This document shows, one piece after another, positions 5,006 through 63,833 of a stretch of 64,000 bases of DNA. Every line of letters starts with the position of its first letter. The first letter of the stretch is position 1. The stretch comes from Enterobacteria phage KhF3, in the sequence record KT184315.1, one strand, 5' to 3'. The position numbers and the translations under genes are program-made. The notes under the pieces are model-generated. The model did not search any database. It was given only the letters and a program-made list of their open reading frames with translations, and was not told the DNA's origin.

Positions 5006-5036
5006 ATTTAAGGACTCTCGTAAGAATCCTTAGAAG

Positions 5037-5112: not shown

Positions 5113-5117
5113 AAATT

Positions 5118-5196
5118 TGGTACTCCATATCGGATTCGAACCGATACATAACACAGATTTTAAGTCTGGCCTCTCTGCCAATTGGAGTAATGGAGC
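5118..5196 (-). tRNA. tRNA with anticodon TAA (Leu by anticodon), short variable arm
   Basis: Acceptor GCTCCAT/ATGGAGT, T-arm ATCGG-TTCGAAT-CCGAT, anticodon loop CTTAAAA, discriminator A, 76 nt without CCA. Confidence 0.55.
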
Positions 5197-5198
5197 AT

Positions 5199-5274
5199 TG
5201 GCGGGGGATGTTGGAATTGAACCAACTTCTTCGATTTCAAAGACCGAGGTTTTAACCTTGTAAACTAATCCCCT
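5199..5274 (-). tRNA. tRNA-Gln (anticodon TTG)
   Basis: Anticodon stem TCGGT/ATCGA loop CTTTGAA; position 1-72 mismatch. Confidence 0.7.
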
Positions 5275-5282
5275 TTAAATCT

Positions 5283-5840: not shown

Positions 5841-6079
5841 TGTCTAATCCTCGTAAGGAGGTAAATGTTATTATTCGTTTCTAAACCTTCTGGTAAAACT
5901 ATCTCAAAAATAACACTCTTCAGATGTCTACCACCAAAACAATCACGTATAAATCTTTCTACTCTAGCGGGGTCACATAAGTATCCCACTTTTAAGAAAA
6001 TGTGGTGTTCAACACCAATGACCCTGACAAACTCAATACTCTCACAGTTTTCATGTTCAACTACTGTTAATGTTTGCAT
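5837..6079 (-). CDS. hypothetical protein
   Basis: 80-aa ORF, stop overlaps downstream start. Confidence 0.4.
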   Translation of the reverse strand: MQTLTVVEHENCESIEFVRVIGVEHHIFLKVGYLCDPARVERFIRDCFGGRHLKSVIFEIVLPEGLETNNNIYLLTRIRQ

Positions 6080-6096
6080 AGTATCACCTTTTTATC

Positions 6097-6172
6097 TGGC
6101 GCAGGATAAGGGATTCGAACCCCTATTAACAGCTTCGTAGACTGTTGCTCTTTCCATTTGAACTAATCCTGC
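6097..6172 (-). tRNA. tRNA-Arg (anticodon ACG)
   Basis: Anticodon stem ACAGT/GCTGT loop CTACGAA. Confidence 0.7.
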
Positions 6173-6177
6173 AAAAT

Positions 6178-6255
6178 TGGTGTTCCAAGACGGATTCGAA
6201 CCGTCACTAATACAAGGTTTGAGCTTGCATCCTCTGCCAATTGGGATACTGGAAC
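6178..6255 (-). tRNA. tRNA with anticodon CAA (Leu by anticodon), short variable arm
   Basis: Acceptor GTTCCAG/TTGGAAC, anticodon stem GCAAG/CTTGT loop CTCAAAC, T-arm GACGG-TTCGAAT-CCGTC, discriminator A. Confidence 0.55.
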
Positions 6256-6256
6256 A

Positions 6257-6331
6257 TGGTACTCACTAAAGGACTTGAACCTTTTTCTTCATCTTGTAAG
6301 GGTGATGTTTTACCATATAAACTAAGCGAGT
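6257..6331 (-). tRNA. tRNA-Val (anticodon TAC)
   Basis: Anticodon loop CTTACAA, D-stem GTTT/AAAC, discriminator A. Confidence 0.65.
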
Positions 6332-6427
6332 ATGAAAGAGGTCTGGAGTTGTGCCGCTAACTCAACTCCGTGGAATTTGTTACGGTCTTCAGTTGACTCA
6401 AAGCGGTCTTTCACTTGACCTCTGAAT
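6332..6427 (-). other. structured spacer element (not a canonical tRNA)
   Basis: No T-loop; ends pair GAGGTC/GACCTC; internal 7-bp hairpin GGAGTTG/CAACTCC; contains GAAGACCGT motif shared with other spacers. Confidence 0.3.
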
Positions 6428-6503
6428 TGGTGCTCCCACAAGGACTCGAACCCTGATAAGTTGCTTACAAGGCAACCGTAATAACCAATTATACGATAGG
6501 AGC
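6428..6503 (-). tRNA. tRNA-Thr (anticodon TGT)
   Basis: Anticodon stem GTTGC/GCAAC loop CTTGTAA. Confidence 0.7.
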
Positions 6504-6510
6504 ATTAATT

Positions 6511-6585
6511 TGGAGCATCCAGAGGGAATCGAACCCTCAACCTCAGTTTGGAAGACTGTAATTTTCCCGTTTAAACTATGGATGC
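6511..6585 (-). tRNA. tRNA-Gly (anticodon TCC)
   Basis: Anticodon loop CTTCCAA, discriminator T. Confidence 0.65.
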
Positions 6586-6591
6586 ACTAAT

Positions 6592-6667
6592 TGGTGGAGT
6601 CACCGAGAATTGAACTCGGTTCCCAAGTTTGCAAAACTCGAATTTTAACCATATAAACTATGACCCC
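6592..6667 (-). tRNA. tRNA-Ala (anticodon TGC)
   Basis: Anticodon loop TTTGCAA; G3-U70 pair in acceptor stem. Confidence 0.7.
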
Positions 6668-6673
6668 ATTGTT

Positions 6674-6749
6674 TGGTACAGGTGGAGGGAATTGAACCCA
6701 TCGTCTTACTGATTAAGAGTCAGCCGCATAACCATTTTGCTACACCTGC
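6674..6749 (-). tRNA. tRNA-Lys (anticodon CTT)
   Basis: Acceptor and anticodon arm fold, but T-stem is only 3 GC pairs. Confidence 0.5.
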
Positions 6750-6756
6750 ATTAATT

Positions 6757-6833
6757 TGGTACACCTAGAGAGATTCGAACTCACACTGAGCAGATTCTAA
6801 GTCTGCTGCCTCTACCAGTTGGGCTATAGGTGC
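6757..6833 (-). tRNA. tRNA with anticodon TAG (Leu by anticodon), short variable arm
   Basis: Acceptor GCACCTA/TAGGTGT, anticodon stem GCAGA/TCTGC loop CTTAGAA, 5-nt variable loop, 74 nt without CCA. Confidence 0.55.
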
Positions 6834-7086
6834 ATTAAATCTTTTTAGAGAACTTCTAAGAACCTAAGCAACAAGGCTCCACAACAAGCTGTAATAACCT
6901 TAGAAGCCCTCTAAAAAGACCTAAATAGGTCTTTGCATAGTCTTGTTTAATCCGGTGACTAGAACCTTTGGAGAGCTTGATATTATCTCTTCTCCGTGAC
7001 ACCTACTAGGTGCTTTGACAGTGTACGACAATACACGAGGGATAAACCGACAATGCGAACAAGCATGGACGGAGTAAATCTTATTA

Positions 7087-7176
7087 GGCGGTAAGTAAAG
7101 GAGTCGAACCCTCACCGTATCTCTACAGTGGCAACTGTTTTCAAGACAGTTTGGCTACCATTAGCCGCTACCTACC
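7087..7176 (-). tRNA. tRNA-Ser (anticodon TGA), class II
   Basis: Acceptor GGTAGGT/ACTTACC, anticodon stem ACTGT/ACAGT loop CTTGAAA, long variable arm. Confidence 0.55.
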
Positions 7177-7189
7177 CCTAATAAGACTT

Positions 7190-7272
7190 TGGCATGGGAC
7201 GGAGGAGTTGAACCCCTTTGAAACGGTTTTGGAGGCCGTTGCTCATGCCTTAGAGTCTTAACATCGTCCCAT
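7190..7272 (-). tRNA. tRNA-Trp (anticodon CCA)
   Basis: Acceptor ATGGGAC/GTCCCAT, anticodon loop CTCCAAA; D region longer than usual. Confidence 0.5.
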
Positions 7273-7414
7273 ATTATAATTCGAAGCTTACCCTGTTATC
7301 TCAACACTGTCAAGCTTCTTCTCAGATTATTTACATGTTCTGGAAAACATGAGATACAGACCACCTCCCTACAGGAAGACCCGCTAAGGCCGTCTAAGTA
7401 ATCTGCTAACTATT

Positions 7415-7491
7415 TGGTACACCCTACAGGATTCGAACCTGTAACTAACGATTTAGAAGACCGTTGCTCTATCCAATTGAACTAAGGGTGC
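7415..7491 (-). tRNA. tRNA-Arg (anticodon TCT)
   Basis: Anticodon stem ACGGT/ATCGT loop CTTCTAA. Confidence 0.7.
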
Positions 7492-7737
7492 ATTATCTTT
7501 AAAGACTCTCTTAGAAAGCCCTTAAAGATGCCCACCTTATTAATCATACCGTGGGCGAGTACGCCAAATTCTTTGATGAGGGATTGGAAGACCTCACTGG
7601 TGTTTAGCCTATCAAGCTACTGCCAGAAAAACATTGTCGTTTGCATTTATTTTAAATTTGCAAAATAGACGCTACGCAACGAAAACTAAGGTTACTATAA
7701 AGTAGTCACATCTCAATGTCAACAACTTTATTGAAAT

Positions 7738-7813
7738 TGGTACTGGTAGGTGGAATCGAACCACCGATGTTCCCTTATCAGGGGAGTGTTATAACCTTCT
7801 TAACTATACCAGC
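7738..7813 (-). tRNA. tRNA-Ile (anticodon GAT)
   Basis: Anticodon loop CTGATAA, T-stem GGTGG/CCACC. Confidence 0.65.
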
Positions 7814-7814
7814 T

Positions 7815-7891
7815 TGGAGGTTCAGATGGGAATCGAACCCACATTCATAGGGCTTATGAGACCCTTGCATTACCTTATCTGCGACTGAACC
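7815..7891 (-). tRNA. tRNA-Met (anticodon CAT), elongator-like
   Basis: Acceptor GGTTCAG/CTGAACC fully paired, anticodon loop CTCATAA. Confidence 0.65.
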
Positions 7892-7969
7892 AGAATAAGT
7901 ACCCTAGTTAGAGAAACTGTTGAGTGGGTGTTTCCAGCCGCGCAGGTGTTTCTCAGTTAAGGGTGAATT

Positions 7970-8045
7970 TGGTAGAAGTGGAGGGATTCGAACCCATCGC
8001 CTGTCAGATTAAAAGTCTGCCGCATCACCATTCTGCTACACTTCC
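7970..8045 (-). tRNA. tRNA-Lys (anticodon TTT)
   Basis: Anticodon loop CTTTTAA; T-stem weak, same T-arm sequence as the CTT copy. Confidence 0.55.
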
Positions 8046-8050
8046 ATTAA

Positions 8051-8192
8051 ATTATCTTTGTAGATAAGCTACCCAGACTTGCTTAAGGTCTGTAGCGATG
8101 TGCCTTTTTGGGTTTAAATCTAGAATTTACCCTTTCACCCTTTGTGGTCGCATACTCACAGGTAAGCTTAATAACTTATCTACAAAGATAAT
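8051..8192. repeat. perfect 17-bp inverted repeat flanking about 108 bp
   Basis: ATTATCTTTGTAGATAA at 8051-8067 and its exact reverse complement at 8176-8192. Confidence 0.8.
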
Positions 8193-8194
8193 TA

Positions 8195-8326
8195 CCAGAC
8201 CGTTGTTTATCATCTTAAGTGCTACCATTACACCAACTCGACATCTGCCGAGTGAAGGAATCGAACCTTCGCCTTTTCTTTACCGGAGAAATAGATTGTT
8301 TAAGTTTTGCTGTAAACGGTCTTCTG
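8195..8326 (-). ncRNA. candidate structured small RNA with tRNA-like module
   Basis: Closing stem CCAGACCG / CGGTCTTCTG; inside, T-arm GAAGG-TTCGATT-CCTTC followed by an ACTCGGC/GTCGAGT hairpin and a D-arm-like GTGTAATGGTAGCAC; order is not that of a canonical tRNA. Confidence 0.35.
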
Positions 8327-8339
8327 TAAAATTGTTGAG

Positions 8340-8418
8340 CCAGACCAAGTTTTATAAATTTTTTCAAAATTAAATTGGCTTGAAAATATCATACGTACTT
8401 GCTGAATTTGGTCTTCTG
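8340..8418 (-). other. inverted-repeat-bounded spacer element
   Basis: CCAGACCAAG ... TTGCTGAATTTGGTCTTCTG. Confidence 0.3.
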
Positions 8419-8505
8419 CTCCTTTAAAGAATACTCGTAAGAACTCTTTAAGGGAGGGGCTAAAATAGCCCTCTCAAACATCATTTTGAAATACTTATTA
8501 TAATT

Positions 8506-8583
8506 TGGCGGTTACGAAGGGATTTGAACCCTCATCATCTCCCGTGACAGGGGAGTATTTTAACCAGATTAAACTACATAACC
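8506..8583 (-). tRNA. tRNA-Asp (anticodon GTC)
   Basis: Anticodon stem CTCCC/GGGAG loop CTGTCAC, CCA encoded. Confidence 0.7.
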
Positions 8584-8589
8584 TTTATT

Positions 8590-8677
8590 TGGTGTGCCGT
8601 GTAGGAGTCGAACCTACCGAGTCTCAATGACAAGGGATTTACAGTCCCCACCGCTACCATCTACGGGATAACGACAC
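8590..8677 (-). tRNA. tRNA-Tyr (anticodon GTA), class II
   Basis: Anticodon loop CTGTAAA, long variable arm, T-stem GTAGG/CCTAC. Confidence 0.65.
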
Positions 8678-8686
8678 ATTTAAATT

Positions 8687-8763
8687 TGGCGGTTAGTCAG
8701 GGATTCGAACCCTGTGCCATTCGCTTAACAGGCGACCGCACATACCTTATGTGCTTCCTAACC
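8687..8763 (-). tRNA. tRNA-Asn (anticodon GTT)
   Basis: Anticodon loop CTGTTAA, T-arm CAGGG-TTCGAAT-CCCTG. Confidence 0.65.
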
Positions 8764-8774
8764 TTAATACATTG

Positions 8775-8834
8775 CCAGACCGTGTTTTTTCTTTTATCCG
8801 CAAAAAGTATTTTGTTGCTGAATACGGTCTTCTG
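8775..8834 (-). other. inverted-repeat-bounded spacer element
   Basis: CCAGACCG ... TTGCTGAATACGGTCTTCTG. Confidence 0.3.
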
Positions 8835-8840
8835 CAAAAT

Positions 8841-31051: not shown

Positions 31052-32161
31052 TTAGATTTCACGTTTACGTTGAGAGATGAGTTCACCAGCAGTGCCAACG
31101 ATGACATGCAAAGCTTCAGTCTTACCGTCCCATGCTTCCAGCACTTTACGTTGATTATCAACGATTGCTGCAACTTCATAACGAGAGGAACGCATCTTCA
31201 TATCGTTGTAATCAGTTGGAACAGATACAACATCTCGTGGATGTACGCGAACCTTCAGGATTGTATCACCTGAGAAGCAACGAACATAATCCCAAGCACC
31301 AACATGAAGACCTTGAGAGCAAGTTACGTTACGGTTATTATCAACCATCCAACGTGGCATTTCTACAATGTTACCCAAATCATTAGGCACTTTGTAGGTG
31401 TGAGAGTCAACCAGCTTGCCTTCACGAGTAGAGACTTTCTTCCAACCAATGATGTAGCCTTCTTCATCAATTTCAACATCAAGGTGAGATACAAATCCCC
31501 AAAGTTGTTCTACAGAATCTTTAGATGGGTTTTCCATCAGTTTTTCGAAGAACATTACAAGTCGTTCAAAACCTTTATCGCCAGTTTTCATCATGTGAAG
31601 AATACGGTCAACCAGAGTAGAACGCATCTCAACAGTACCGTAGAATAGCTTGTCACCTTTGATTGTGATAGTACCCTGAGTGAAGTTTTCGATAGACTTA
31701 CGAATGTTCATCAGTTCAAATGCTTTCTTGAACTCACCTTTCACAACATGAACTACAATCTCTTGATAGTTCGGATGAGTAGACTCAACAATTTCAGATT
31801 CTGAACCATAAGTCATAATTACAGAATCACCAGTAATCATGTACTCAATCTTGTCATCTTTCTGCATAGCTTCGTGCAGTTTATTTACTGGAGCTTTCTG
31901 TACAGTGTCTTTAACGACATTTTCAACTGGTTTGCCAGCTTTCTTTTTAAAAGTCTTAGCAACTTGCTTCAAAGTCTTCGTAGCTGGTGTAGAAGTTGCC
32001 TTTTTATTCCCTTTTAGGGTTGCTTCATGACGCTCTACAGCACGACCAACTGAACGGGTTGAAGTGTTAAATTTCTGTGCAATAGCTGTTTTGGTCAGCT
32101 TACCTTCTTTTACCAGTTTGTAAATTTCTGCGTCAATCTGTGCTTTAGTTTTAGTAGTCAT
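31052..32161 (-). CDS. rIIB-like protein
   Basis: 369-aa ORF immediately downstream of rIIA-like gene; N-terminal helix-turn-helix-like segment; assignment by synteny. Confidence 0.45.
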   Translation of the reverse strand: MTTKTKAQIDAEIYKLVKEGKLTKTAIAQKFNTSTRSVGRAVERHEATLKGNKKATSTPATKTLKQVAKTFKKKAGKPVENVVKDTVQKAPVNKLHEAMQKDDKIEYMITGDSVIMTYGSESEIVESTHPNYQEIVVHVVKGEFKKAFELMNIRKSIENFTQGTITIKGDKLFYGTVEMRSTLVDRILHMMKTGDKGFERLVMFFEKLMENPSKDSVEQLWGFVSHLDVEIDEEGYIIGWKKVSTREGKLVDSHTYKVPNDLGNIVEMPRWMVDNNRNVTCSQGLHVGAWDYVRCFSGDTILKVRVHPRDVVSVPTDYNDMKMRSSRYEVAAIVDNQRKVLEAWDGKTEALHVIVGTAGELISQRKREI

Positions 32162-32240: not shown

Positions 32241-34607
32241 TTAATCGTAAATTGTTGTACCTTCTGGAACACATTTCACATCAAAGCCTAAAAACTTACT
32301 CACTTCGATAGGTGATACTTTATTCCAATCTAAGTGTGAAAGCAAGAAGTTTTCTTGTTTTCTTTTTGAAAGATAGTTTGTCAGCTTGATAACCATGCGG
32401 TCACCTGCTTTCTTAATCTTTTTGTACAGTTTTGTGTCATTATCAAGGCATGACTTCAAATCCTGAAGAACACTGATAGTGTAAGTGTATGCAAACGGTG
32501 CAGCCACATACTGAATCTTACCAAACATTGCCTCAACAGCATCTTCATTCCCTTCTAAGAAGATTGTCTTAATAGTATCCCTTGAATAACAATACCCGCG
32601 AGAAATCTTCCTGTTATTAAACGTAAAGTTTCTGGCAATAATCCAACTGCTTGTAAGGTCAAGGACACCATTCATATAGATACGTGTCATATATCTGTTA
32701 TGGTTAATCCAGTGAACATCAGTTAAGCTGTCGTTCAAGAGTTTCTCATCTACTTCAATCCAATCTTCTGGTATCTTTTTCCAATTTGCTTTTCGGAAAA
32801 CATAGACTGTCTTACCTGTAACATTAGCAACTGACTTAGCTACATCTTCTGGAGATGAGCAAAAACATCTACCATCAACTGTGTCGCCTACTGCCTTAAT
32901 ATAAAGCTGAGGTTCTTCAATTGTGTCTAAGTCCTCTGACACCTCTTTGTAGGAGGCTACACCTTCTGCTGGAACAGCTTTCCAGAGTTTTACAACACCT
33001 CTTACAGCTTCTTTACGCTGGTAATGGTGTTCCTTATCAGACATTTTCACAATCTTTAACAAGCTTTTATCAAGTTTGTGCAGATTGATTAAGTCATCTA
33101 ACTCTTTTTCAGTCGAGAATACAAAGACAATACCATTGTATCTGTGAAACAGACTTGACTCACTGGCATAGTCTCGACATGCACCACGCAAGATTTGGTT
33201 GCGTCCTACAGTCTTCTCAGTACCATTTTTATTGCGACGGTCATTTATAACAAACAAAAACTGTTCAATTTGGCTTTTACGCATTGCGCCAAAGATATTG
33301 AACATACTTGCCTCTTGAGTGTAGGAAAGTGCTGTTGCACGAATCTTACTCTCTAAAGAGTTGAACTTGACATAAGCAACTGGGTCATAAAGATAATCTA
33401 CTTTAGGGATGTTGTTTCCGTTCCTATCAACCTTAATATTACCTTTACCGTCACGTTCATAAATGACTGAGCCGTCTTCTGCGTAGATAATTCCACGACG
33501 AATGTTTAGTAATTCTTCTTCCAGAGAATCAAGCTTAACGCCTCCCCACTCTAACTTTGGACACACAGCATTAAACATCTCTCGTGAGTTCAAACGTAAC
33601 TCAGCATAAGCCTGTGCAGCATCCATGAGTGTAGGTTGACTGTTAACTTTCTTGATAACATCCTTTGTAATTGCTTCAGTTATCTTTTTAGTAGCCTCAA
33701 TGATAACATTTTTTGTCGTGTCATTCATCTGCAATGCTTCACGAGAAGCTGCAATAGCGACTGAACCAATAGGCATGTAGATGTTTACAAGGTCTACGCT
33801 CCTACGGAAAAATTCTGGCAATACTTTGAAGAAATTATCACCAAGTAATGCTTCCATGTTAACAGGGTAGGCAATGTTACCCATCACCACATTAAACTCT
33901 GTCCTGTTATCACTAGAACGCCAGCTGTGCTTATGAATCATGGCATCATAAACACCTTCTTCACGGGCAATGACGTTCATATCTGCTAATACATCGTCGT
34001 ACTCAATATTACTTTCTGGTTTTACAGTGAAGTATGAGTACACATTCCCAGCTTCTTCAAAGAACTTTGAGATACGGTGGTCAGCAACCGCCACACGTAC
34101 AGCTAAACCATTAGGTTCTTTTGTTGGGTTAGTTGTCAGCTTAGTTACTTGAGGGATACCATTCTCAAGATAAACAGAGTACTTATTAACAACACCATCA
34201 ACATAGCTAGATACTGTGAATGACTGAGCAATTGCAAATGGTGACTTTGAGCCGATACCCATTGCACCAATGTAGTCATTAGAGTCATTCTTCGTAGAAG
34301 CTCCATAGTTTAGGTACAAACTCATAACTTTATCATGAGTCAATCCAGTTCCAAAATCACGAACTTCGAAGTAAGGCTCAAAACGAGTAGGTAAATGCAC
34401 ATGGAATGGGATGTTCTCTTTTCCAGCTTCTTTCTGAGCATCTACTGCGTTACATGACAGTTCACGAATCACTGCCCTTTCTTTAAAGGTATATACACCA
34501 GAACTCAAAAGGCTGAACATCTCAGGTGTCATTGTAATCTGTGCTTGAGACGTCTCTAAAGAAGTTGAACTCTTAATCACTTCTGCGTGGTCATTTACCA
34601 TGCGCAT
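32241..34607 (-). CDS. rIIA-like protein with GHKL ATPase domain
   Basis: N-terminal NAVDA, DFGTG and GAMGIGSKSPF motifs; about 790 aa. Confidence 0.65.
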   Translation of the reverse strand: MRMVNDHAEVIKSSTSLETSQAQITMTPEMFSLLSSGVYTFKERAVIRELSCNAVDAQKEAGKENIPFHVHLPTRFEPYFEVRDFGTGLTHDKVMSLYLNYGASTKNDSNDYIGAMGIGSKSPFAIAQSFTVSSYVDGVVNKYSVYLENGIPQVTKLTTNPTKEPNGLAVRVAVADHRISKFFEEAGNVYSYFTVKPESNIEYDDVLADMNVIAREEGVYDAMIHKHSWRSSDNRTEFNVVMGNIAYPVNMEALLGDNFFKVLPEFFRRSVDLVNIYMPIGSVAIAASREALQMNDTTKNVIIEATKKITEAITKDVIKKVNSQPTLMDAAQAYAELRLNSREMFNAVCPKLEWGGVKLDSLEEELLNIRRGIIYAEDGSVIYERDGKGNIKVDRNGNNIPKVDYLYDPVAYVKFNSLESKIRATALSYTQEASMFNIFGAMRKSQIEQFLFVINDRRNKNGTEKTVGRNQILRGACRDYASESSLFHRYNGIVFVFSTEKELDDLINLHKLDKSLLKIVKMSDKEHHYQRKEAVRGVVKLWKAVPAEGVASYKEVSEDLDTIEEPQLYIKAVGDTVDGRCFCSSPEDVAKSVANVTGKTVYVFRKANWKKIPEDWIEVDEKLLNDSLTDVHWINHNRYMTRIYMNGVLDLTSSWIIARNFTFNNRKISRGYCYSRDTIKTIFLEGNEDAVEAMFGKIQYVAAPFAYTYTISVLQDLKSCLDNDTKLYKKIKKAGDRMVIKLTNYLSKRKQENFLLSHLDWNKVSPIEVSKFLGFDVKCVPEGTTIYD

Positions 34608-34635
34608 AATACTTTCCTCTTAGTTTACTGTTAAA

Positions 34636-34812
34636 TTACTTATTAAACATTTTACCAGAACCACCACAAATAGGGCAACAACCTGCTCTTGTATACCCTT
34701 CTCCGTTACAGTAGTCACACTTTTTGTGTTCTGCAAAGTACTTACAAAGAAGGCAAACAAATATTGCTACACTACCAAGTGACAGTAAAATTTCTATCCA
34801 ATATGCTTGCAT
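34636..34812 (-). CDS. small membrane protein with zinc ribbon (58 aa, not in ORF track)
   Basis: ATG 34810-34812 with GAGGTGA RBS; hydrophobic helix then CDYC ... CPICGGSG. Confidence 0.45.
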   Translation of the reverse strand: MQAYWIEILLSLGSVAIFVCLLCKYFAEHKKCDYCNGEGYTRAGCCPICGGSGKMFNK

Positions 34813-35129
34813 GACTCACCTCTCATGTTTTTGTAAAGGATAAAGCTTCTGTCATGAACGATACTTGTAGATACTGCAAAGTTACTTTCAAGCATCTGTT
34901 TGTTTGGATTGTAGAAGCTTTTTTTAAACTCGTCAAGCGCAAACTGGTGATGTTGTGGAAGACCTTTTACACAAACCTTTATTGTGATTGCTGCTGCAAC
35001 CTTTCCAGTCAGTTCTTCTTTAGCTGCTACTAAAATTTTGTTGAGGAACTTATGACCATCTTCAGTCTTCTTGATGTTCTCCCAACGTTCTTCTAAGACA
35101 ATGTTGATGTTCATTTCTTTGATTTTCAT
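34794..35129 (-). CDS. hypothetical protein
   Basis: 111-aa ORF. Confidence 0.45.
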   Translation of the reverse strand: MKIKEMNINIVLEERWENIKKTEDGHKFLNKILVAAKEELTGKVAAAITIKVCVKGLPQHHQFALDEFKKSFYNPNKQMLESNFAVSTSIVHDRSFILYKNMRGESCKHIG

Positions 35130-35145
35130 AGTTTCTCCAGAAATT

Positions 35146-35166
35146 AAAAAGGCTCCCGTAGGAGCC
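35146..35166 (-). terminator. rho-independent terminator
   Basis: Minus-sense GGCTCC-TACG-GGAGCC followed by T5. Confidence 0.7.
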
Positions 35167-35181
35167 TCTTATCATATACTT

Positions 35182-36963
35182 TTAAAGCTGCTTGTCAATA
35201 TTATTTCGAATATCACCAAGCGTTGTGTAACCGAACTGCTCAGAGTCGCTAAAGACTAAACGTAAAGCACAAGCTGGATGTTCAAGTACATCTGCAAAGC
35301 TCTGGAATCCATAGCCATCTACAGCTTTCAACTTATCACCATCCCACATAGGTGCTACACCACCAAAAGCAGACTTCTTAACACCACTATCTGTTTTAGG
35401 GTCTTTTGCAAGCATAATCTCTTTACCACCAATGCTTGCAAGAGTTGCTTTAACAGCAAATGCAAAGGTGTCACGAGTCATGTACTGGTAAGTGTAAGAG
35501 CCTACGCCAAACACTACGTTAGAGCTTGCAAAACCCATTTCATACAGACGCTTCAGGATTTCGTTTGCACGTTCCAGCGTGATAGAGTCGCCATAGATAA
35601 GGCCAATGTGCTCATCCAGTACCTTAAAACCTTTAGAGTTAATAGTTCCTCCAAAGATGTTGTACAGTGTCTTAATAGCTCCATCAATCTCAGCTACAGG
35701 ACGTGTTACAACGTTTGCAGAACCAACCATATAAGCGTTTTTCAACAGCACTGTATCAGCAACTTCAAAGTCTTCTCTGTCAACAACCATTTCGTAGCCT
35801 TCTGACAGTAGCCATCCAGCAATACCATAATTGATGTTTTCAAGCTTCATGTTCAGAACAGCATTCAACATTGTGTCGCTGGCTTCCAGCTTGCTAAGGT
35901 GCTCATAATAAGCCTTTTTAGCACATTCTAAGTGGATTGCTTTATAACCTGTGACAATATGTACAGGGTCTCCAGAGTCAGGGCGAATTACCAGTTTACC
36001 GTCACGTTCCATAATTTCTTTACGAAGTGCTGGTAAGATTTCTGACACAGTTCTCCAGAAGTTATAAGTATCTGAAACAATGCTTGCAATACCTGTTGGG
36101 TAAGTTTCTGTTAAGAAACGACGGAAGGTTTGTAACTCACCTTTAAAGCGTCTTTCTTCTTCAACCAACTCATTACCACCTTCCCAAGCAATGTTTGCAC
36201 ACATTACAGAGTGCTCAGTGGCTGGTACAGAACTACCAATATCAGAGATTGGGTAGGACTGTCCATAGATTCGTTTAGCCGTGTATACAGCAGGGAAGCT
36301 ATCAGTCCCTTTAAAGCTGGTTAAGTGACCTACAGCGTTAAATGCGTCATCAGTAAAGCCGGACATACCACGCATAGCAAAATCATGGCACTGATAAGGT
36401 AAATGTAAGTCATTGTCACAAGTAAGGTCAGCCCACTTCTTACAGATGCGTTTGTAATGCAATGCAATAGTTGCAATGGTGCAAGCCTTCCAAATTTCAG
36501 CAGAGAAAGCATCTTCCAGATAACCTGCTACCCAATGAAAACCTGAAACAGTGTTCTGAAAGACAATCATCGGGACACGCATTGGAACAACTGTGCCTTC
36601 TTCTACAGCGTATACTTCAACTGGTAGATAACCTAAGTCGTGAAGTGCTTCCCAATGCTCTCGACCGATAGCATCTTTACCCAGAACACCATTCATGACT
36701 TCTAAGATTTCATCAATGGCTTCTTTTTTATCACGTTCAAAGAAAGTGGCATTCCAGTGGTCTATCAAGTAATCTTTAACAAAACGTTGAATACCAAAAG
36801 CCACTACACCGTCAATTGCTAAGGGGCTGTTAAACCATTTGTCGCTACGTGGTGTCAGATTGAACATCAAGTACTCTGTTGCGCTAGGATACTGGTAAAC
36901 ATGACCAGATTTGTAAGCATCTGCATTTAAACCTGCTGGTACTGCATAAAGTGATTTAGTCAT
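35182..36963 (-). CDS. nicotinamide phosphoribosyltransferase family protein (NAMPT-like)
   Basis: 593-aa ORF; N-terminal DAYKSGH and later SDTYN segments resemble the NAMPT/NAPRTase family. Confidence 0.6.
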   Translation of the reverse strand: MTKSLYAVPAGLNADAYKSGHVYQYPSATEYLMFNLTPRSDKWFNSPLAIDGVVAFGIQRFVKDYLIDHWNATFFERDKKEAIDEILEVMNGVLGKDAIGREHWEALHDLGYLPVEVYAVEEGTVVPMRVPMIVFQNTVSGFHWVAGYLEDAFSAEIWKACTIATIALHYKRICKKWADLTCDNDLHLPYQCHDFAMRGMSGFTDDAFNAVGHLTSFKGTDSFPAVYTAKRIYGQSYPISDIGSSVPATEHSVMCANIAWEGGNELVEEERRFKGELQTFRRFLTETYPTGIASIVSDTYNFWRTVSEILPALRKEIMERDGKLVIRPDSGDPVHIVTGYKAIHLECAKKAYYEHLSKLEASDTMLNAVLNMKLENINYGIAGWLLSEGYEMVVDREDFEVADTVLLKNAYMVGSANVVTRPVAEIDGAIKTLYNIFGGTINSKGFKVLDEHIGLIYGDSITLERANEILKRLYEMGFASSNVVFGVGSYTYQYMTRDTFAFAVKATLASIGGKEIMLAKDPKTDSGVKKSAFGGVAPMWDGDKLKAVDGYGFQSFADVLEHPACALRLVFSDSEQFGYTTLGDIRNNIDKQL

Positions 36964-37008
36964 CTCTTAATCTCTCTCAAAATGGGGCTTGGAAGCCCCT
37001 ATAAAGTT

Positions 37009-50485: not shown

Positions 50486-51343
50486 TTAATCTTCTGTATC
50501 GAAGTCTTCATCTTCTTCGTCATCTGGGTCTGGCAAGTCTTCATCATCACCATCATCAGAATCATTCGAAGGTTTATGGTCTGTTGCGTCTTCTTCAGTG
50601 ATTTCACCGTTATCTTCAACACCATCAAGACCAAGCATAGCCAGTTCATCTTCATCCAGTTCAGGTTCACCATTAGCACCGTTACCACCAGTGTAAGGTA
50701 CAAGAGTATCAATGATAAACTGTTCCTGAATAGGTTTTGTCAGAACATTGTTCTCAAAAGTGTAGAAGTGAGTAGAAAGAATCACACTACCAAAAGAACC
50801 GTTACCGACTGCAATATCTGGATGAATTACATCATAGTTCTTGTCATCTTCATGTTTATCAGATGCTTGAGCTTTGATTTTCTTCATCGGCTGTTTAACA
50901 GCTACACGCTTACCATTTACTTCTTCAATCAGCATCACAGGGAATGACTGTTTAGCTGTCCATACAGCACCATCTTTATAAGCTGCTGCACGACTTACTT
51001 TCAAGATGTAGTAAGTGTCTGCTTCAAAAGGTGGTTTACAACCAAACTTCTCTTCGAAGTCGTCTGCATCAACTGCTTCAGTAGTAACTTTATCCCATCC
51101 TTCTGGATTTTTCTTAGACTTAGTAAACTCTTTAAACAGTTTGTTACCGTCTTCTGCCAGAATTGATACGCTGTAGTTACAATCTCTTCCTGGGAATTTC
51201 TTATCAATGGACTTGCCTTTTCCCGGACGTGGTGAAGTGTTCAGGTAATAAAACCAGACATCTTTCAGAAGGTAACGCAGAGTTTGACGTTCAGTACCGT
51301 TGTACTTCTCTACCGGAGCTTTCATTTTAACAACTTTAGACAT
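50486..51343 (-). CDS. single-stranded DNA-binding protein (T7 gp2.5-like)
   Basis: 285 aa with strongly acidic C-terminal tail; position in replication module. Confidence 0.55.
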   Translation of the reverse strand: MSKVVKMKAPVEKYNGTERQTLRYLLKDVWFYYLNTSPRPGKGKSIDKKFPGRDCNYSVSILAEDGNKLFKEFTKSKKNPEGWDKVTTEAVDADDFEEKFGCKPPFEADTYYILKVSRAAAYKDGAVWTAKQSFPVMLIEEVNGKRVAVKQPMKKIKAQASDKHEDDKNYDVIHPDIAVGNGSFGSVILSTHFYTFENNVLTKPIQEQFIIDTLVPYTGGNGANGEPELDEDELAMLGLDGVEDNGEITEEDATDHKPSNDSDDGDDEDLPDPDDEEDEDFDTED

Positions 51344-51415: not shown

Positions 51416-51565
51416 TTACTGGAAGTTGTGCTTATCTTTAGAAGCTGCTTTACGTGCAGTTTTTCCAGTTCTTACACGTTTTTCTTCATAGTATTTTGCT
51501 GGTTTTCCAGCAGTGGCTTTTAAAGAGTCCCCAAAAACTTTTTCAAATGCTTTAGAGTGTTTCAT
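51416..51565 (-). CDS. small Lys-rich protein (49 aa, not in ORF track)
   Basis: ATG overlaps upstream stop as ATGA; GGAGAA RBS. Confidence 0.4.
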   Translation of the reverse strand: MKHSKAFEKVFGDSLKATAGKPAKYYEEKRVRTGKTARKAASKDKHNFQ

Positions 51566-51855
51566 GATATTCTCCGATATACTTGATATTCAAACACATT
51601 TTCTTTCATTATAAACAGCCAACCAATATTATGTTTAGGTATAGTAATAGTGACTGTGATTATGCTGTGATGGAACTTTTCTTCTACCTCAACACCCCCA
51701 TCACATTTCATGTAGAGCATTCTATAGAACCTATCAACCTTTGTCAAACACTCTTCCTGAAATTCATTTAAACTTTTTTCTTCAAAGAAGGGTGTGAACC
51801 CCTCTCTTTTGTAACTATCACTCAGTTTCGAATGGGCAGTCATCTGCATCCTCAC
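51562..51855 (-). CDS. hypothetical protein
   Basis: 97-aa ORF. Confidence 0.45.
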   Translation of the reverse strand: MRMQMTAHSKLSDSYKREGFTPFFEEKSLNEFQEECLTKVDRFYRMLYMKCDGGVEVEEKFHHSIITVTITIPKHNIGWLFIMKENVFEYQVYRRIS

Positions 51856-61908: not shown

Positions 61909-62055
61909 ATGTTCAGTACAGTCATTCTGTTTATACTGGTTGTCTTTGTATTGTCATACGTTGCAAGTAAGCTTTTGGACACATCTTTTGCAATGGGTGT
62001 CTTGTTTACAATCTTTTGTTTCGTGACACATATAGCTATCAGAACTTTTTTATAA
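61909..62055 (+). CDS. small hydrophobic peptide (48 aa, not in ORF track)
   Basis: ATG 3 nt after ligase stop; two predicted membrane helices; weak RBS. Confidence 0.3.
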   Translation: MFSTVILFILVVFVLSYVASKLLDTSFAMGVLFTIFCFVTHIAIRTFL

Positions 62056-62062
62056 AAAGTTG

Positions 62063-62090
62063 TTGACATAGAAAATTTGGTGAGTATACT
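62063..62090 (+). promoter_or_regulatory. sigma70-like promoter
   Basis: TTGACA, 16 nt, TATACT; followed by 10-bp inverted repeat CATCACTTAA / TTAAGTGATG at 62121-62159. Confidence 0.55.
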
Positions 62091-62120
62091 GAGCAGCATA
62101 AACCAACGGGTACTCACCAG

Positions 62121-62430
62121 CATCACTTAAGAGTCTTCTAAGAGGGTTTTTAAGTGATGTGAGGTATGGTAGTGTTCTGTTCGGTACGGTGTGGCACGGT
62201 AATGCTAGGTCTGGTCAGGTCGGGTCAGGTGCGGTACAGTATGGGTAGTTAGTCTCATCTACATTAAAATGAGACTTACCTTTTTAAAAGGTCTTTAAGA
62301 GGGTTTTTTAATGAGGTAGGGTAAAGTAATGTTTGGTCTGGTTTGGTAAGGCGCGGTCTGGTTTGGTAAGGTAAGGTTCGGTATGGTATGGGTGGATGGT
62401 AGTAGCCACGTTAAAAATCTACCAAGTTTC
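62121..62430 (+). repeat. two tandem units: conserved block, GGT-rich tract, hairpin
   Basis: Blocks TAAGAGGGTTTTT, GGT-periodic tracts (GGTATGGT, GGTCTGGT, GGTAAGG), hairpins AGTCTCAT ... ATGAGACT + T5 at 62251-62286 and GGTAG ... CTACC at 62398-62423. Confidence 0.7.
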
Positions 62431-62481
62431 TAAAGAGTCTTCTGTTGAGGGTTCTTTACAAACAACTTAACAATCAACTAA

Positions 62482-63087
<606 letters not shown>

Positions 63088-63089
63088 TT

Positions 63090-63530
63090 ATGAATACAAA
63101 AGCATTAGCAGCAAAGTTTAGTTACGGTGACACTGTATCACATTCTGAGATGGATACCTTCTTAGGTATTGTGAAGCCAACTTATCAAGGTGACATTGTT
63201 AAGTACGAAGATGAAATGAAGGCTTATGCACTTACACGACTAAACCGACTTGAGAAGTTTATTGAAAAGCTTCTTAAAGAAGAGAAGATTTATCTGGTTG
63301 CTTCAATGGGTGTTGGTTATCGTGTGGTTGAGCCTAAACATCAAGCAACTATTGCAAAACGTAAAATGTCTGGTAAAATTGGTCGTGCTTTAAAGCAAGC
63401 TACTCAAGCAATTGAGAATGTGAACACTATGGCACTTAGCCACCAAGAACGTTCACGACTAATTGAACAGCAAAACCACTTAGCTGCTATGAAAGCTAAC
63501 ATTAACAAGCAACGCAGAAAACCTTTCTAA
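63090..63530 (+). CDS. hypothetical protein
   Basis: 146-aa ORF. Confidence 0.5.
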   Translation: MNTKALAAKFSYGDTVSHSEMDTFLGIVKPTYQGDIVKYEDEMKAYALTRLNRLEKFIEKLLKEEKIYLVASMGVGYRVVEPKHQATIAKRKMSGKIGRALKQATQAIENVNTMALSHQERSRLIEQQNHLAAMKANINKQRRKPF

Positions 63531-63542
63531 GTTGACTAGGTA

Positions 63543-63566
63543 GCCTCTTCGGAGGCTCCTTTTTAA
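63543..63566 (+). terminator. rho-independent terminator
   Basis: GCCTC-TTCG-GAGGC followed by TCCTTTTT. Confidence 0.7.
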
Positions 63567-63815
63567 AAGGTCTTTAAGAGGGTCTTTTAATGAGGTAGTA
63601 TACGGTATGGTGGGGTAGGGTGAGGTCTGGTTTGGTAAGGTAGGGTCTGGTATGGGTAGTTAGTCTCAGCTACATTAAAATGAGACTTACCTTTTTAAAA
63701 GGTCTTTAAAAGGGTCTTTTAACAAGGTATTGTATGGTGTAGTTTGGTTAGGTATGGTTAGGTGTGGTAAGGTAAGGTATGGAAGGATGGCAGTAGCCTT
63801 ATAAAAAATCTGCCA
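63565..63815 (+). repeat. two further tandem units of the GGT-rich repeat family
   Basis: AAAAGGTCTTTAAGAGGGTCTTTT blocks, GGT-rich tracts, hairpins AGTCTCAG ... ATGAGACT and GGCAG ... CTGCC. Confidence 0.7.
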
Positions 63816-63833
63816 AATAAGCTATAAAATCTG

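What the first reader, a model, noticed from the sequence alone, without database searches (positions are those of the whole stretch)
34636..34812. Unannotated small ORFs below the 60-aa track threshold
Three short ORFs fill gaps: 34636-34812 (58 aa, membrane helix plus CxxC ... CxxCGGSG zinc ribbon, strong RBS), 51416-51565 (49 aa, Lys-rich, ATGA-coupled to the upstream gene) and 61909-62055 (48 aa, hydrophobic). The first two have good translation signals.
Basis: seen in the sequence. Interest (0 to 1): 0.4.

Follow-up and report, generated by a model that had tools for sequence, protein, structure and literature searches.

The report
Small conserved phage genes; membrane zinc-knuckle
The three short reading frames are real, conserved genes of a Felix O1-like phage that are already annotated in related genomes. 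The most interesting one encodes a 58-residue membrane-anchored zinc-binding peptide that sits directly in front of the rIIA/rIIB anti-defence genes, and its function is still unknown.

Summary
The window is a Felixounavirus genome (98.5% identical to phage KhF1). All three ORFs are at the stated coordinates: ORF1 34636-34812 (-), ORF2 51416-51565 (-), ORF3 61909-62055 (+).

Each matches a same-length PHROG family of unknown function (E 1e-32 to 1e-36) and shows purifying selection. They are not unannotated in public records. ORF1 is Felix01p243, bas63_0083 and SUSP1 agp080. ORF2 is FelixO1p245 and agp053. ORF3 is VpaE1_088.

ORF1 encodes an N-terminal transmembrane helix followed by one zinc knuckle made of two CxxCxGxG motifs. 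This is the DnaJ/Anti-TRAP type, with Cys spacing C-x2-C-x10-C-x2-C. The predicted topology is N-out/C-in.

ORF1 lies immediately upstream of rIIA in four Ounavirinae genera, an unclassified Yersinia phage and a metagenomic contig, even where RIIA is only 35% identical. It is absent upstream of most other rIIA genes, and in Krischvirus it follows nrdH instead.

In a published knock-down screen of phage SUSP1, the ORF1 and ORF2 orthologues were dispensable in a laboratory host.

My best guess, held with low confidence, is a membrane-tethered protein-binding adaptor that works with RIIA/RIIB. The finding is of ordinary-to-modest interest.

In passing, the repeats just after ORF3 turned out to be a VIPR locus (Vipr protein plus GGY/NN guide RNAs), which was described in 2026 preprints.

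The parts
34636..34812 (-). ORF1: 58-aa gene for a membrane-anchored zinc-knuckle protein (orthologues Felix01p243, bas63_0083, SUSP1 agp080)
   Evidence: Listed as an ORF. Full-length match to phrog_3931, E 2.8e-32. pN/pS 0.1-0.3 against 18 Felixounavirus loci, with differences at codon positions 1:2:3 of 28:40:139. Orthologues at 35-59% identity keep the frame and the Cys/Gly motif.
34744..34800 (-). Transmembrane helix of ORF1 (about residues 5-23)
   Evidence: KD19 2.32. The AlphaFold2 model has a helix at residues 3-28. E7 and S11 are invariant in the 12-sequence alignment. No K/R occurs N-terminal of the helix in 12 of 12 family members, and 3-6 K/R follow it, which predicts N-out/C-in.
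34651..34719 (-). Zinc knuckle of ORF1 (residues 32-54): C32-x2-C35-x-G-x-G ... C46-x2-C49-x-G-x-G-K
   Evidence: Invariant columns C32 C35 G37 G39 C46 C49 G51 G53. The family profile hits the DnaJ Cys-rich domain 1exk at 2.7e-10 and Anti-TRAP 3lcz at 0.002. The best Foldseek PDB hits are Anti-TRAP chains, rmsd 1.3 A over 28 residues.
34816..34824 (-). Shine-Dalgarno sequence GAGAGGTGA of ORF1, inside the 3' end of the upstream 111-aa ORF
   Evidence: Read directly from the sequence. Conserved in phiWec174 and Bas63.
34794..35129 (-). 111-aa ORF (phrog_4262, unknown function) that overlaps ORF1 by 19 nt
   Evidence: The same 19-nt overlap occurs in Michonne, EcSzw_1, Bas63 and SUSP1. The ORF is absent in Yersinia phage P778.
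32241..34607 (-). rIIA (788 aa), starting 28 nt after the ORF1 stop codon
   Evidence: phrog_612 at 3e-189. Annotated as rIIA in relatives. No predicted TM segment, KD19 maximum 1.29.
31052..32161 (-). rIIB (369 aa)
   Evidence: phrog_609 at 2e-89. No predicted TM segment, KD19 maximum 0.69.
35147..35198 (-). Promoter-like site (TTGACA-16-TATGAT, 35198-35171) abutting a terminator hairpin (35170-35147) after nadV. This is the upstream boundary of the 111aa-ORF1-rIIA-rIIB unit.
   Evidence: Consensus scan only. A terminator is annotated at the same place in phage Michonne.
31015..31038 (-). Terminator-like hairpin after rIIB, the downstream boundary of the unit
   Evidence: Consensus scan only.
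51416..51565 (-). ORF2: 49-aa Lys-rich gene (orthologues FelixO1p245, SUSP1 agp053), ATGA-coupled to the 97-aa ORF at 51562-51855
   Evidence: phrog_4424, 7.4e-36. Against 21 Felixounavirus loci pN is about 0 while pS reaches 0.16, with codon-position differences 2:0:66. The 45-aa orthologues in other genera give pN/pS of about 0.2. Found in 262 phage records.
61909..62055 (+). ORF3: 48-aa hydrophobic gene (two predicted helices; VpaE1_088, Phi87_152), 3 nt after the DNA ligase stop
   Evidence: phrog_22006, 5.5e-33. pN/pS 0.22-0.32 in frame 0 against 1.6-4.7 in frame +2, with only 1-2 second-position changes out of about 20. Present in only 65 phage records and often not annotated. It lies in a variable region.

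Best explanation
All three ORFs are genuine small accessory genes of a Felix O1-like phage.

ORF1 encodes a bitopic inner-membrane protein:
- a 3-7 residue periplasmic N-terminus;
- one transmembrane helix with a conserved polar face (E7, S11);
- a roughly 30-residue cytoplasmic domain in which two CxxCxGxG motifs (C32, C35, C46, C49) bind one zinc ion, forming the same knuckle as in Anti-TRAP and in half of the DnaJ Cys-rich domain.

ORF1 is transcribed and translated together with the 111-aa ORF, rIIA and rIIB.

Inferred mechanism: the zinc knuckle is a protein-binding surface held at the inner face of the membrane. It works in the rII pathway, which protects the phage against membrane-depolarising abortive-infection systems such as RexAB or QatABCD. 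It would do so either by tethering the TM-less RIIA/RIIB proteins to the membrane or by contacting a membrane-bound host or defence component.

What is shown: the gene is real, and the architecture, the motif, the synteny and dispensability in a laboratory host are established.
What is inferred: zinc binding, topology, and above all the functional link to RIIA/RIIB.

ORF2 is a conserved small basic protein in the replication module, translationally coupled to the gene upstream. Its role is unknown, possibly nucleic-acid or replisome binding.

ORF3 is a patchily distributed two-helix membrane peptide between the ligase gene and the VIPR locus.
For: The gene is real:
- PHROG matches.
- pN/pS 0.1-0.3 and excess of third-position changes.
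- Invariant Cys and Gly residues across orthologues at 35-59% identity.
- ORF1 is the only ORF of at least 45 aa in the window with a CxxCxGxG motif.

Architecture:
- KD19 2.32 for the helix and the positive-inside charge pattern in 12 of 12 relatives.
- AlphaFold2 model, mean pLDDT 76, with a helix at 3-28 followed by short hairpins.
- DnaJ Cys-rich domain 1exk at E 2.7e-10 and Anti-TRAP 3lcz at 0.002 by family profile.
- Anti-TRAP chains are the top Foldseek hits, rmsd 1.3 A over 28 residues, 36% identity.

Link to rII:
- The TM-zinc-knuckle gene is the gene immediately 5' of rIIA in Felixounavirus, Mooglevirus, Suspvirus, Kolesnikvirus, Yersinia phage P778 and a metagenomic contig (52, 54).
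- RIIA identity falls to 35% across these.
- The gap to rIIA is 28 nt with no terminator. Terminator-like hairpins bracket the 111aa-ORF1-rIIA-rIIB unit.
- RIIA and RIIB here have no TM segment.
- T4 RII proteins are classically described as membrane-associated. This rests on established knowledge and was not tested here.
- In Ounavirinae, RIIA/RIIB counter RexAB in SUSP1 (PMC11879866) and QatABCD in Bas63 (10.1101/2024.10.10.617714).
- The SUSP1 orthologue agp080 scored 1.05 and was called 'Not Fit'. It is dispensable in a defence-free host, as expected for a conditional accessory gene.
Against: - There is no direct evidence of an interaction with RIIA/RIIB.
- In 46 of 48 other diverse rIIA loci, no CxxCxGxG ORF lies upstream. 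This includes three Ounavirinae-sized contigs with 52-59% identical RIIA (L105, L110, L111).
- T4 rIIA.1, the gene at the equivalent position in T4, is unrelated.
- Krischvirus-type homologues are not next to rIIA. They overlap the stop codon of nrdH/glutaredoxin.
- The Bas63 screen named only rIIA and rIIB as QatABCD counters, not bas63_0083. Its per-gene data could not be read.
- Synteny within one subfamily may simply reflect common descent.
- Frameshifted alleles exist in databases.
- Pfam and NCBIfam thresholds for DnaJ_CXXCXGXG and Anti-TRAP are not reached.
- Zinc binding and topology are predictions only.
Confidence: 0.35

Rival explanations
1. ORF1 is a stand-alone, membrane-tethered inhibitor or adaptor that targets a host protein, in the way Anti-TRAP uses its zinc domain to block TRAP. 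Its position next to rIIA is only inherited gene order.
For: - Anti-TRAP is the closest structure.
- Homologues in Krischvirus-type phages sit elsewhere, after nrdH.
- Most rIIA genes lack such a neighbour.
- It was not reported among the QatABCD counters in Bas63.
- It is dispensable in the SUSP1 screen.
- The conserved polar residues E7 and S11 in the TM helix suggest a specific intramembrane partner.
Against: - The ORF1-rIIA adjacency persists across lineages whose RIIA is only 35% identical and whose other neighbours changed. The 111-aa ORF is missing in P778, and extra genes are present in Harbringer.
- No host target is known.
- E. coli has no TRAP (established knowledge).
Confidence: 0.3
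2. ORF1 is a redox-active or chaperone-like module. It would act as a DnaJ-type Cys-rich finger with thiol-disulfide or holdase activity at the membrane, possibly together with phage glutaredoxin.
For: - The family profile matches the DnaJ Cys-rich domain.
- The Harbringer orthologue is annotated 'chaperone protein'.
- Krischvirus-type homologues are translationally overlapped with nrdH/glutaredoxin in two divergent contexts.
- DnaJ's zinc finger has reported oxidoreductase activity (abstract of PMC8262869).
Against: - Only half of a DnaJ Cys-rich domain is present, and there is no J domain.
- In Ounavirinae the gene is not near the glutaredoxin gene.
- The 'chaperone' label is an automatic annotation.
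Confidence: 0.1
3. ORF1 acts in lysis timing or membrane permeabilisation, as a holin-, antiholin- or pinholin-like small membrane protein.
For: - It is a small single-TM protein.
- The rII genes are traditionally filed under 'lysis'.
- The supplementary text of PMC11879866 states that model Ounavirus Felix O1 to date lacks an identifiable [lysis component]; the retrieved passage is truncated at that point.
Against: - It has only one TM helix and a structured zinc domain, which is unlike known holins.
- It is separated from the annotated i-spanin gene, the nearest lysis gene, by rIIA, rIIB and further genes.
- Knock-down gave no phenotype in SUSP1.
Confidence: 0.07
4. The ORFs are not functional proteins. 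ORF1 would be a leader ORF whose translation merely tunes rIIA expression, and ORF3 would be a chance ORF in a variable spacer.
For: - The window holds 103 ORFs of 45-59 aa.
- ORF3 is absent from most relatives and often unannotated.
- Frameshifted ORF1 alleles exist.
- The ORF1 and ORF2 orthologues are dispensable in SUSP1.
Against: - There is protein-level constraint: pN/pS is well below 1 in the annotated frame only, and the Cys/Gly motif is invariant at 35-59% identity.
- A leader ORF would not conserve a zinc motif and a TM helix across genera.
Confidence: 0.05

Closest known systems
Anti-TRAP (RtpA) of Bacillus (PDB 2bx9, 3lcz, 3ld0)
   Same: - A protein of about 53-58 residues.
- A single zinc site built from two CxxCxGxG-like motifs with the same spacing, C-x2-C-x10-C-x2-C. 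The profile aligns ORF1 residues 30-53 to Anti-TRAP residues 10-33.
- The best structural superposition found, rmsd 1.3 A over 28 residues at 36% identity.
- In Anti-TRAP the zinc domain is used as a protein-binding surface (established knowledge).
   Different: - Anti-TRAP is soluble and oligomerises through a C-terminal helix. ORF1 instead has an N-terminal transmembrane helix and no C-terminal helix.
- The Pfam Anti-TRAP (8.4 against 32 bits) and NCBIfam RtpA (10.8 against 65 bits) thresholds are not met.
- The host has no TRAP.
Cys-rich (zinc finger) domain of DnaJ/Hsp40 (PF00684; PDB 1exk)
   Same: The CxxCxGxG motif. The family profile matches both halves of the E. coli DnaJ domain, E 2.7e-10.
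   Different: - DnaJ has four motifs that form two interleaved zinc centres, plus a J domain and C-terminal domains. ORF1 has two motifs and one predicted zinc centre.
- The Pfam score is 13.6 against a gathering score of 32.7.
Membrane-anchored DnaJ-like zinc-finger proteins of chloroplasts (e.g. LQY1, CYO1/SCO2), and bacterial proteins with an N-terminal signal or TM segment plus CxxCxGxG repeats
   Same: A hydrophobic N-terminal anchor followed by CxxCxGxG modules. Many such bacterial proteins appeared in the exhaustive profile search. The plant examples are recalled from established knowledge and were not tested here.
   Different: - Those proteins carry 2-13 repeat pairs and are much longer.
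- Several have classical signal peptides, so their repeats may lie outside the cytoplasm.
- Only six 50%-identity cluster representatives share the full 52-60 aa architecture of ORF1.
T4 rIIA.1 (the small gene immediately upstream of T4 rIIA)
   Same: Position only: a small ORF directly 5' of rIIA on the same strand.
   Different: A 67-aa soluble helical sequence with no Cys, no TM segment and no similarity to ORF1.

Membership tests
PHROG phrog_3931 (ORF1), phrog_4424 (ORF2), phrog_22006 (ORF3) | Full-length, significant match to the family HMM | tested here: met
   E 2.8e-32 (residues 1-58 on profile 1-59 of 59), 7.4e-36 (1-49 of 49) and 5.5e-33 (1-48 of 48). All three families are 'unknown function'.
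DnaJ central Cys-rich domain (Pfam PF00684) | Score at or above the Pfam gathering threshold | tested here: not met
   13.6 bits against 32.7, E 0.08. TIGR02349 DnaJ_bact scored 14.1 against 377.
DnaJ central Cys-rich domain (Pfam PF00684) | Four CxxCxGxG repeats forming two zinc centres | tested here: not met
   Only two repeats are present (C32-C35 and C46-C49), in every family member.
DnaJ central Cys-rich domain (Pfam PF00684) | The CxxCxGxG motif itself, conserved | tested here: met
   C32 C35 G37 G39 C46 C49 G51 G53 are invariant in 12 sequences. The profile hits 1exk at 2.7e-10.
Anti-TRAP / RtpA (Pfam PF15777, NCBIfam NF058604) | Score at or above the curated cut-off | tested here: not met
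   Pfam 8.4 against 32 bits. NCBIfam 10.8 against 65 bits.
Anti-TRAP / RtpA (Pfam PF15777, NCBIfam NF058604) | A single Cys4 zinc knuckle with C-x2-C-x10-C-x2-C spacing, and the corresponding fold | tested here: met
   The spacing is read from the sequence. Profile E is 0.002 to 3lcz, aligning residues 30-53 with 10-33. The top three Foldseek hits are Anti-TRAP chains, rmsd 1.3-1.5 A, probability 0.84-0.97, but E is only 0.24-0.73 because the domain is short.
Anti-TRAP / RtpA (Pfam PF15777, NCBIfam NF058604) | Soluble trimer or dodecamer that binds TRAP | not testable with these tools
   ORF1 has a TM helix in place of the C-terminal oligomerisation helix. Oligomeric state and partner cannot be computed here.
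rII module (rIIA-rIIB) as a candidate third component | Same strand, adjacent, and inside the same promoter/terminator-bounded unit as rIIA-rIIB | tested here: met
   28-nt gap to rIIA. Terminator-like hairpins lie at 35170-35147 and 31038-31015. The adjacency holds in four Ounavirinae genera, an unclassified Yersinia phage and a metagenomic contig.
rII module (rIIA-rIIB) as a candidate third component | Co-occurrence with rIIA across phages in general | tested here: not met
   Only 2 of 48 diverse rIIA loci have a CxxCxGxG ORF within 1.2 kb upstream, and only one of those has a TM segment. T4 rIIA.1 is unrelated. The Krischvirus homologue sits next to nrdH.
rII module (rIIA-rIIB) as a candidate third component | Same conditional phenotype as rIIA/rIIB, or physical interaction with them | not testable with these tools
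   The only indirect data are these. SUSP1 agp080 was 'Not Fit' in a defence-free host. bas63_0083 is not mentioned among the QatABCD counters.
Protein-coding gene (all three ORFs) | Purifying selection in the annotated frame, and frame conservation in relatives | tested here: met
   ORF1 pN/pS 0.1-0.3. ORF2 pN about 0 with pS up to 0.16, and about 0.2 between genera. ORF3 0.22-0.32 in frame against 1.6-4.7 in frame +2.
VIPR system (side observation, 62.06-63.83 kb) | A Vipr protein homologue flanked by arrays of GGY/NN pentanucleotide repeats | tested here: met
   The family profile of the 62485-63087 product hits PDB 36pp 'SUSP1 Vipr protein' at E 4.2e-82. There are four (GGTNN)n arrays, giving 41 pattern matches against 0.03 expected. 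The system is described in 10.64898/2026.04.26.720920.

The most novel reading that the evidence does not exclude
ORF1 is a previously unrecognised third component of the rII counter-defence module in Felix O1-like phages. It would be a zinc-knuckle membrane anchor that recruits the TM-less RIIA/RIIB proteins to the inner membrane, or couples them to membrane-depolarising abortive-infection effectors such as RexB or QatB. That would give a physical handle on how rII proteins act at the membrane.
Probability: 0.2. Interest if true: 0.55.

Novelty: new member of a known kind. Interest (0 to 1): 0.3.

Why it matters
As a scan result this is mostly housekeeping. It shows that a 60-aa cut-off hides real, selected genes, and that public annotation and PHROGs already hold them.

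The one point of wider interest is ORF1. How RIIA/RIIB protect phages from membrane-depolarising abortive-infection systems has been unclear since the 1950s, and these proteins lack membrane-spanning segments.

A conserved membrane-anchored zinc-knuckle peptide encoded directly in front of rIIA in a whole phage subfamily is a cheap, testable candidate partner. The tests are a deletion on RexAB or QatABCD hosts, and a pull-down.

If it proves unrelated to rII, it is still a compact example of an Anti-TRAP-like zinc module used as a membrane-tethered binder.

Tried and rejected
- **Homology of ORF1 to T4 rIIA.1** (same position in T4): rejected, unrelated sequence.
- **Filing ORF1 under Pfam or NCBIfam families** (DnaJ_CXXCXGXG, Anti-TRAP, Lar, DUF5351, CRIPT): all far below threshold.
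- **The idea that a TM-zinc-knuckle gene generally accompanies rIIA**: rejected. 46 of 48 diverse rIIA loci lack it.
- **Word-index homologue search with the single protein**: found only close relatives and frameshifted entries. An alignment query and the exhaustive profile search added only a handful of full-architecture relatives. Most of the 1176 hits are multi-repeat CxxCxGxG proteins or DnaJ.
- **IMG/VR hits L032-L040**: large proteins that merely contain a CxxCxGxG pair, not family members.
- **Literature searches for a described function**: nothing specific. Per-gene data of the Bas63 PhageMaP screen are not held.
- **Rfam over the whole window**: only tRNAs.
- **GGTNN arrays**: I considered an R-loop origin, G-quadruplex, primase-site cluster and TRAP-like RNA site. 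I dropped all of these once the adjacent protein matched the solved SUSP1 Vipr protein.
- **Structure prediction for the Vipr homologue**: a job was started but not collected, because the sequence match made it unnecessary.
Full report
**Identity of the window**

The region 33000-37000 is 98.5% identical to Enterobacteria phage KhF1. It matches 258 phage records, nearly all of them Felixounavirus (Ounavirinae) phages of Escherichia, Salmonella, Shigella and Citrobacter. The window is therefore part of a Felix O1-like myovirus genome.

**Observation check**

The three ORFs are at the stated coordinates.

- ORF1 (34636-34812) and ORF2 (51416-51565) are on the minus strand. ORF3 (61909-62055) is on the plus strand.
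- ORF1 reads MQAYWIEILLSLGSVAIFVCLLCKYFAEHKKCDYCNGEGYTRAGCCPICGGSGKMFNK. It is preceded by GAGAGGTGA ending 3 nt before the ATG, and followed 28 nt later by the rIIA start codon.
- The ATG of ORF2 overlaps the TGA of the 97-aa ORF upstream as ATGA, with GGAG 8 nt upstream. It has 11 Lys and 3 Arg in 49 residues.
- ORF3 starts 3 nt after the ligase stop codon and has only a weak purine-rich stretch upstream.

ORF length alone means nothing here, because the window holds 103 ORFs of 45-59 aa. ORF1 is the only ORF of at least 45 aa with a CxxCxGxG motif, and it has two. No such ORF appeared in 50 shuffles.

**Are they genes?**

Each ORF gives a full-length match to a PHROG family of identical length and unknown function: phrog_3931 (2.8e-32), phrog_4424 (7.4e-36) and phrog_22006 (5.5e-33).

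| ORF | Comparison set | Selection signal | Codon-position differences (1:2:3) |
|---|---|---|---|
| ORF1 | 18 Felixounavirus loci | pN/pS 0.1-0.3 in all but two pairs (0.33, 0.63) | 28:40:139 |
| ORF2 | 21 Felixounavirus loci | pN about 0, pS up to 0.16 | 2:0:66 |
| ORF2 | 45-aa orthologues in Mooglevirus and Suspvirus | pN/pS about 0.2 | not computed |
| ORF3 | four diverged copies | pN/pS 0.22-0.32 in frame, 1.6-4.7 in frame +2 | 1-2 second-position changes out of about 20 |

ORF3 is found in only 65 phage records, many of which leave it unannotated. It lies in a variable stretch after the ligase gene.

So all three are real genes. ORF1 and ORF2 are core to the subfamily, and ORF3 is an accessory gene.

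**They are not new to public annotation**

- ORF1 is 'putative membrane protein' in KhF1 (similar to Felix01p243). It is also annotated in typing phage 1, Bas63 (bas63_0083) and SUSP1 (agp080).
- ORF2 is FelixO1p245 and agp053.
- ORF3 is VpaE1_088 and Phi87_152.

**What ORF1 encodes**

- Residues 5-23 form a strongly hydrophobic helix (KD19 2.32).
- In 12 of 12 family members the few residues before the helix contain no Lys or Arg and usually an acidic residue. The part after the helix has 3-6 Lys or Arg. By the positive-inside rule the zinc domain is cytoplasmic. This is an inference.
- In the 12-sequence alignment, C32, C35, G37, G39, C46, C49, G51 and G53 are invariant, as are E7 and S11 inside the helix. 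The more divergent Harbringer and P778 orthologues keep the Cys/Gly motif but lack E7.
- The motif is two CxxCxGxG units with the spacing C-x2-C-x10-C-x2-C.
- A profile of the family hits the Cys-rich domain of E. coli DnaJ (1exk, 2.7e-10, both halves) and Anti-TRAP (3lcz, 0.002).
- The AlphaFold2 model (mean pLDDT 76) shows a helix at 3-28 followed by short hairpins. Its best PDB matches are three Anti-TRAP chains, rmsd 1.3-1.5 A over 27-28 residues and probability up to 0.97, but E is only 0.24 or weaker because the domain is tiny.
- Formal membership in PF00684, PF15777 or NF058604 is not met.

ORF1 works like half a DnaJ finger, or like an Anti-TRAP zinc domain, hung on a membrane anchor. 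It is not a member of either family.

**Family breadth**

The exhaustive profile search over 1.84 billion representatives gave 1176 hits. Nearly all are multi-repeat CxxCxGxG proteins or DnaJ. Only a few 52-60-aa proteins share the whole architecture: P0018, P0035, P0057, P0061, P0104 and P0144.

There are two subgroups:

- An Ounavirinae type (MQxYW[IL]E...).
- A Krischvirus, T4-like type (MI[IT]E...). Its gene always overlaps the end of nrdH/glutaredoxin.

**Context of ORF1**

On the minus strand the order is:

1. nadV
2. a promoter-like site (35198-35171) abutting a terminator hairpin (35170-35147)
3. the 111-aa ORF, which overlaps ORF1 by 19 nt
4. ORF1
5. rIIA
6. rIIB
7. a terminator-like hairpin (31038-31015)

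A TM-zinc-knuckle gene of 54-60 aa is the immediate 5' neighbour of rIIA in:

- Mooglevirus (Michonne gp002)
- Suspvirus (EcSzw_1, SUSP1 agp080)
- Kolesnikvirus (Harbringer_111, auto-annotated 'chaperone protein')
- Yersinia phage P778 (ORF109)
- a metagenomic contig carrying the divergent P0104

. RIIA identity drops to 35% across this set, and the other neighbours vary.

RIIA and RIIB of this phage have no predicted TM segment.

The adjacency is not general. Of 48 further rIIA loci from IMG/VR, only 2 carry a CxxCxGxG ORF upstream (one of them is Kolesnikvirus). Three Ounavirinae-sized contigs with 52-59% identical RIIA lack it. T4 rIIA.1 is unrelated.

**Experimental literature**

- In SUSP1, knock-down of RIIA or RIIB sensitises the phage to lambda RexAB (PMC11879866).
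- In Bas63, rIIA and rIIB deletions lose 10^4-10^5 in plating on QatABCD (10.1101/2024.10.10.617714). bas63_0083 is not mentioned there, and the per-gene tables are not held.
- In the SUSP1 transcriptome-wide screen on a defence-free host:
  - agp080 (the ORF1 orthologue) scored 1.05, 'Not Fit'.
  - rIIA scored 1.83, 'Semi-Fit'.
  - agp053 (the ORF2 orthologue) scored -0.06, 'Not Fit'.
  - agp054, the orthologue of the 285-aa gene next to ORF2, was 'Fit'.

ORF1 and ORF2 are thus dispensable under laboratory conditions, as accessory genes usually are.

**Mechanism**

- Shown: ORF1 is a selected gene encoding a TM helix plus a CxxCxGxG pair, placed in the rII transcription unit across a subfamily.
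- Inferred: one zinc ion is bound by C32/C35/C46/C49. The topology is N-out/C-in. The knuckle is a protein-binding surface at the inner face of the membrane.
- Speculative (about 0.2-0.35): its partner is RIIA/RIIB or the membrane component those proteins act on.

Rivals, each with its evidence in the rival-explanations section of this report, are:

- an independent host-directed binder;
- a redox or chaperone role linked to glutaredoxin;
- a lysis role;
- a mere leader ORF.

ORF2 is a conserved basic peptide, translationally coupled within the primase-helicase / 97-aa / 285-aa replication block. ORF3 is a two-helix hydrophobic peptide. I cannot assign functions to either beyond that.

**Side observation**

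Directly after ORF3 there is a strong sigma-70-like promoter (62063-62090). Further downstream there are four arrays of the 5-nt repeat GGTNN, all on the plus strand (41 pattern matches against 0.03 expected). The arrays flank a 200-aa and a 146-aa gene.

The same repeat occurs in more than 120 IMG/VR contigs. Homologues of the 200-aa protein lie next to the arrays in about 30 of them. A family profile of that protein matches PDB 36pp 'SUSP1 Vipr protein' at E 4.2e-82.

This is the VIPR system, made of a Vipr RAMP-like protein plus vrRNAs of alternating GGY/NN. It performs RNA-guided DNA recognition and was described in two 2026 preprints. It is therefore known and is not part of the finding. 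It does explain the ORF-free gaps around 62.1-62.5 and 63.5-63.8 kb.

**Verdict**

The genes are ordinary in the sense of being already catalogued small accessory genes of unknown function.

ORF1 deserves a modest flag as a membrane-anchored Anti-TRAP/DnaJ-type zinc knuckle with deep synteny to rIIA. Interest is 0.3.

Noticed in passing
window 62056-63830 (+): promoter 62063-62090; GGTNN arrays about 62163-62246, 62315-62397, 63594-63661, 63726-63788; genes 62485-63087 and 63090-63530: There are four arrays of a 5-nt periodic GGTNN repeat, in two homologous elements of about 300 nt that flank a 200-aa and a 146-aa gene. This was identified as a VIPR locus. The 200-aa protein family matches the solved SUSP1 Vipr protein (E 4e-82). 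The arrays are vrRNA genes (GGY/NN repeats), and the 146-aa gene is probably the accessory gene vap, judged by position only. VIPR is described in preprints 10.64898/2026.04.26.720920 and 10.64898/2026.04.26.720927. A hairpin near the 3' end of the second array in each element shows a compensatory change: GGTAG..CTACC at about 62403-62428 against GGCAG..CTGCC at about 63788-63813.
   Followed up: yes
window 34620-34760 (-) alternative frame of ORF1; L162 (phiWec174); proteins P0003-P0006, P0016: Several database entries carry frameshifted ORF1 alleles. These run from the TM helix into the alternative frame (...VVALFVVVLVKCLISNLTVN) or the reverse. phiWec174 has a 1-nt deletion in GGAGAAGGG. 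Two of the shifts fall at the A5 run CACAAAAAG. They could be sequencing errors or real null alleles of a dispensable gene.
   Followed up: partly
window 35147-35198 (-): A near-consensus sigma-70-like promoter (TTGACA-16-TATGAT) ends exactly where a strong terminator hairpin begins, just after nadV. Transcripts started there would begin inside the hairpin stem and so escape termination. This rests on consensus scans only.
   Followed up: no
L004 2495-2653 (GEC-3S), L077 520-699; L158 2376-2582 (Bas63): In Krischvirus-type phages the ORF1 homologue always overlaps the stop codon of nrdH/glutaredoxin. In Bas63 the gene overlapping the glutaredoxin stop codon is a different small membrane protein (bas63_0066, no Cys motif). 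A small membrane peptide coupled to a phage glutaredoxin may be a recurring arrangement.
   Followed up: partly
L116 2232-2453, L133 2237-2395, L119/L120 1796-2365, L126/L128: In several unrelated IMG/VR phage contigs the gene immediately upstream of rIIA also encodes a protein with strongly hydrophobic segments but no zinc motif. This was not tested statistically.
   Followed up: no
window 50486-51343 (-): The 285-aa gene downstream of ORF2 has an extremely acidic C-terminal tail and matches phrog_3877 (unknown function). It has no Pfam match. Its SUSP1 orthologue agp054 was one of the strongest 'Fit' genes in the CRISPRi-ART screen, with plating efficiency down about 10^4. It is an essential replication-module gene of unknown function.
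   Followed up: partly
window 3923-9170 (-): A cluster of 26 tRNA genes found by ARAGORN. Rfam finds 24 at its gathering score. This is typical of Felix O1-like phages.
   Followed up: no
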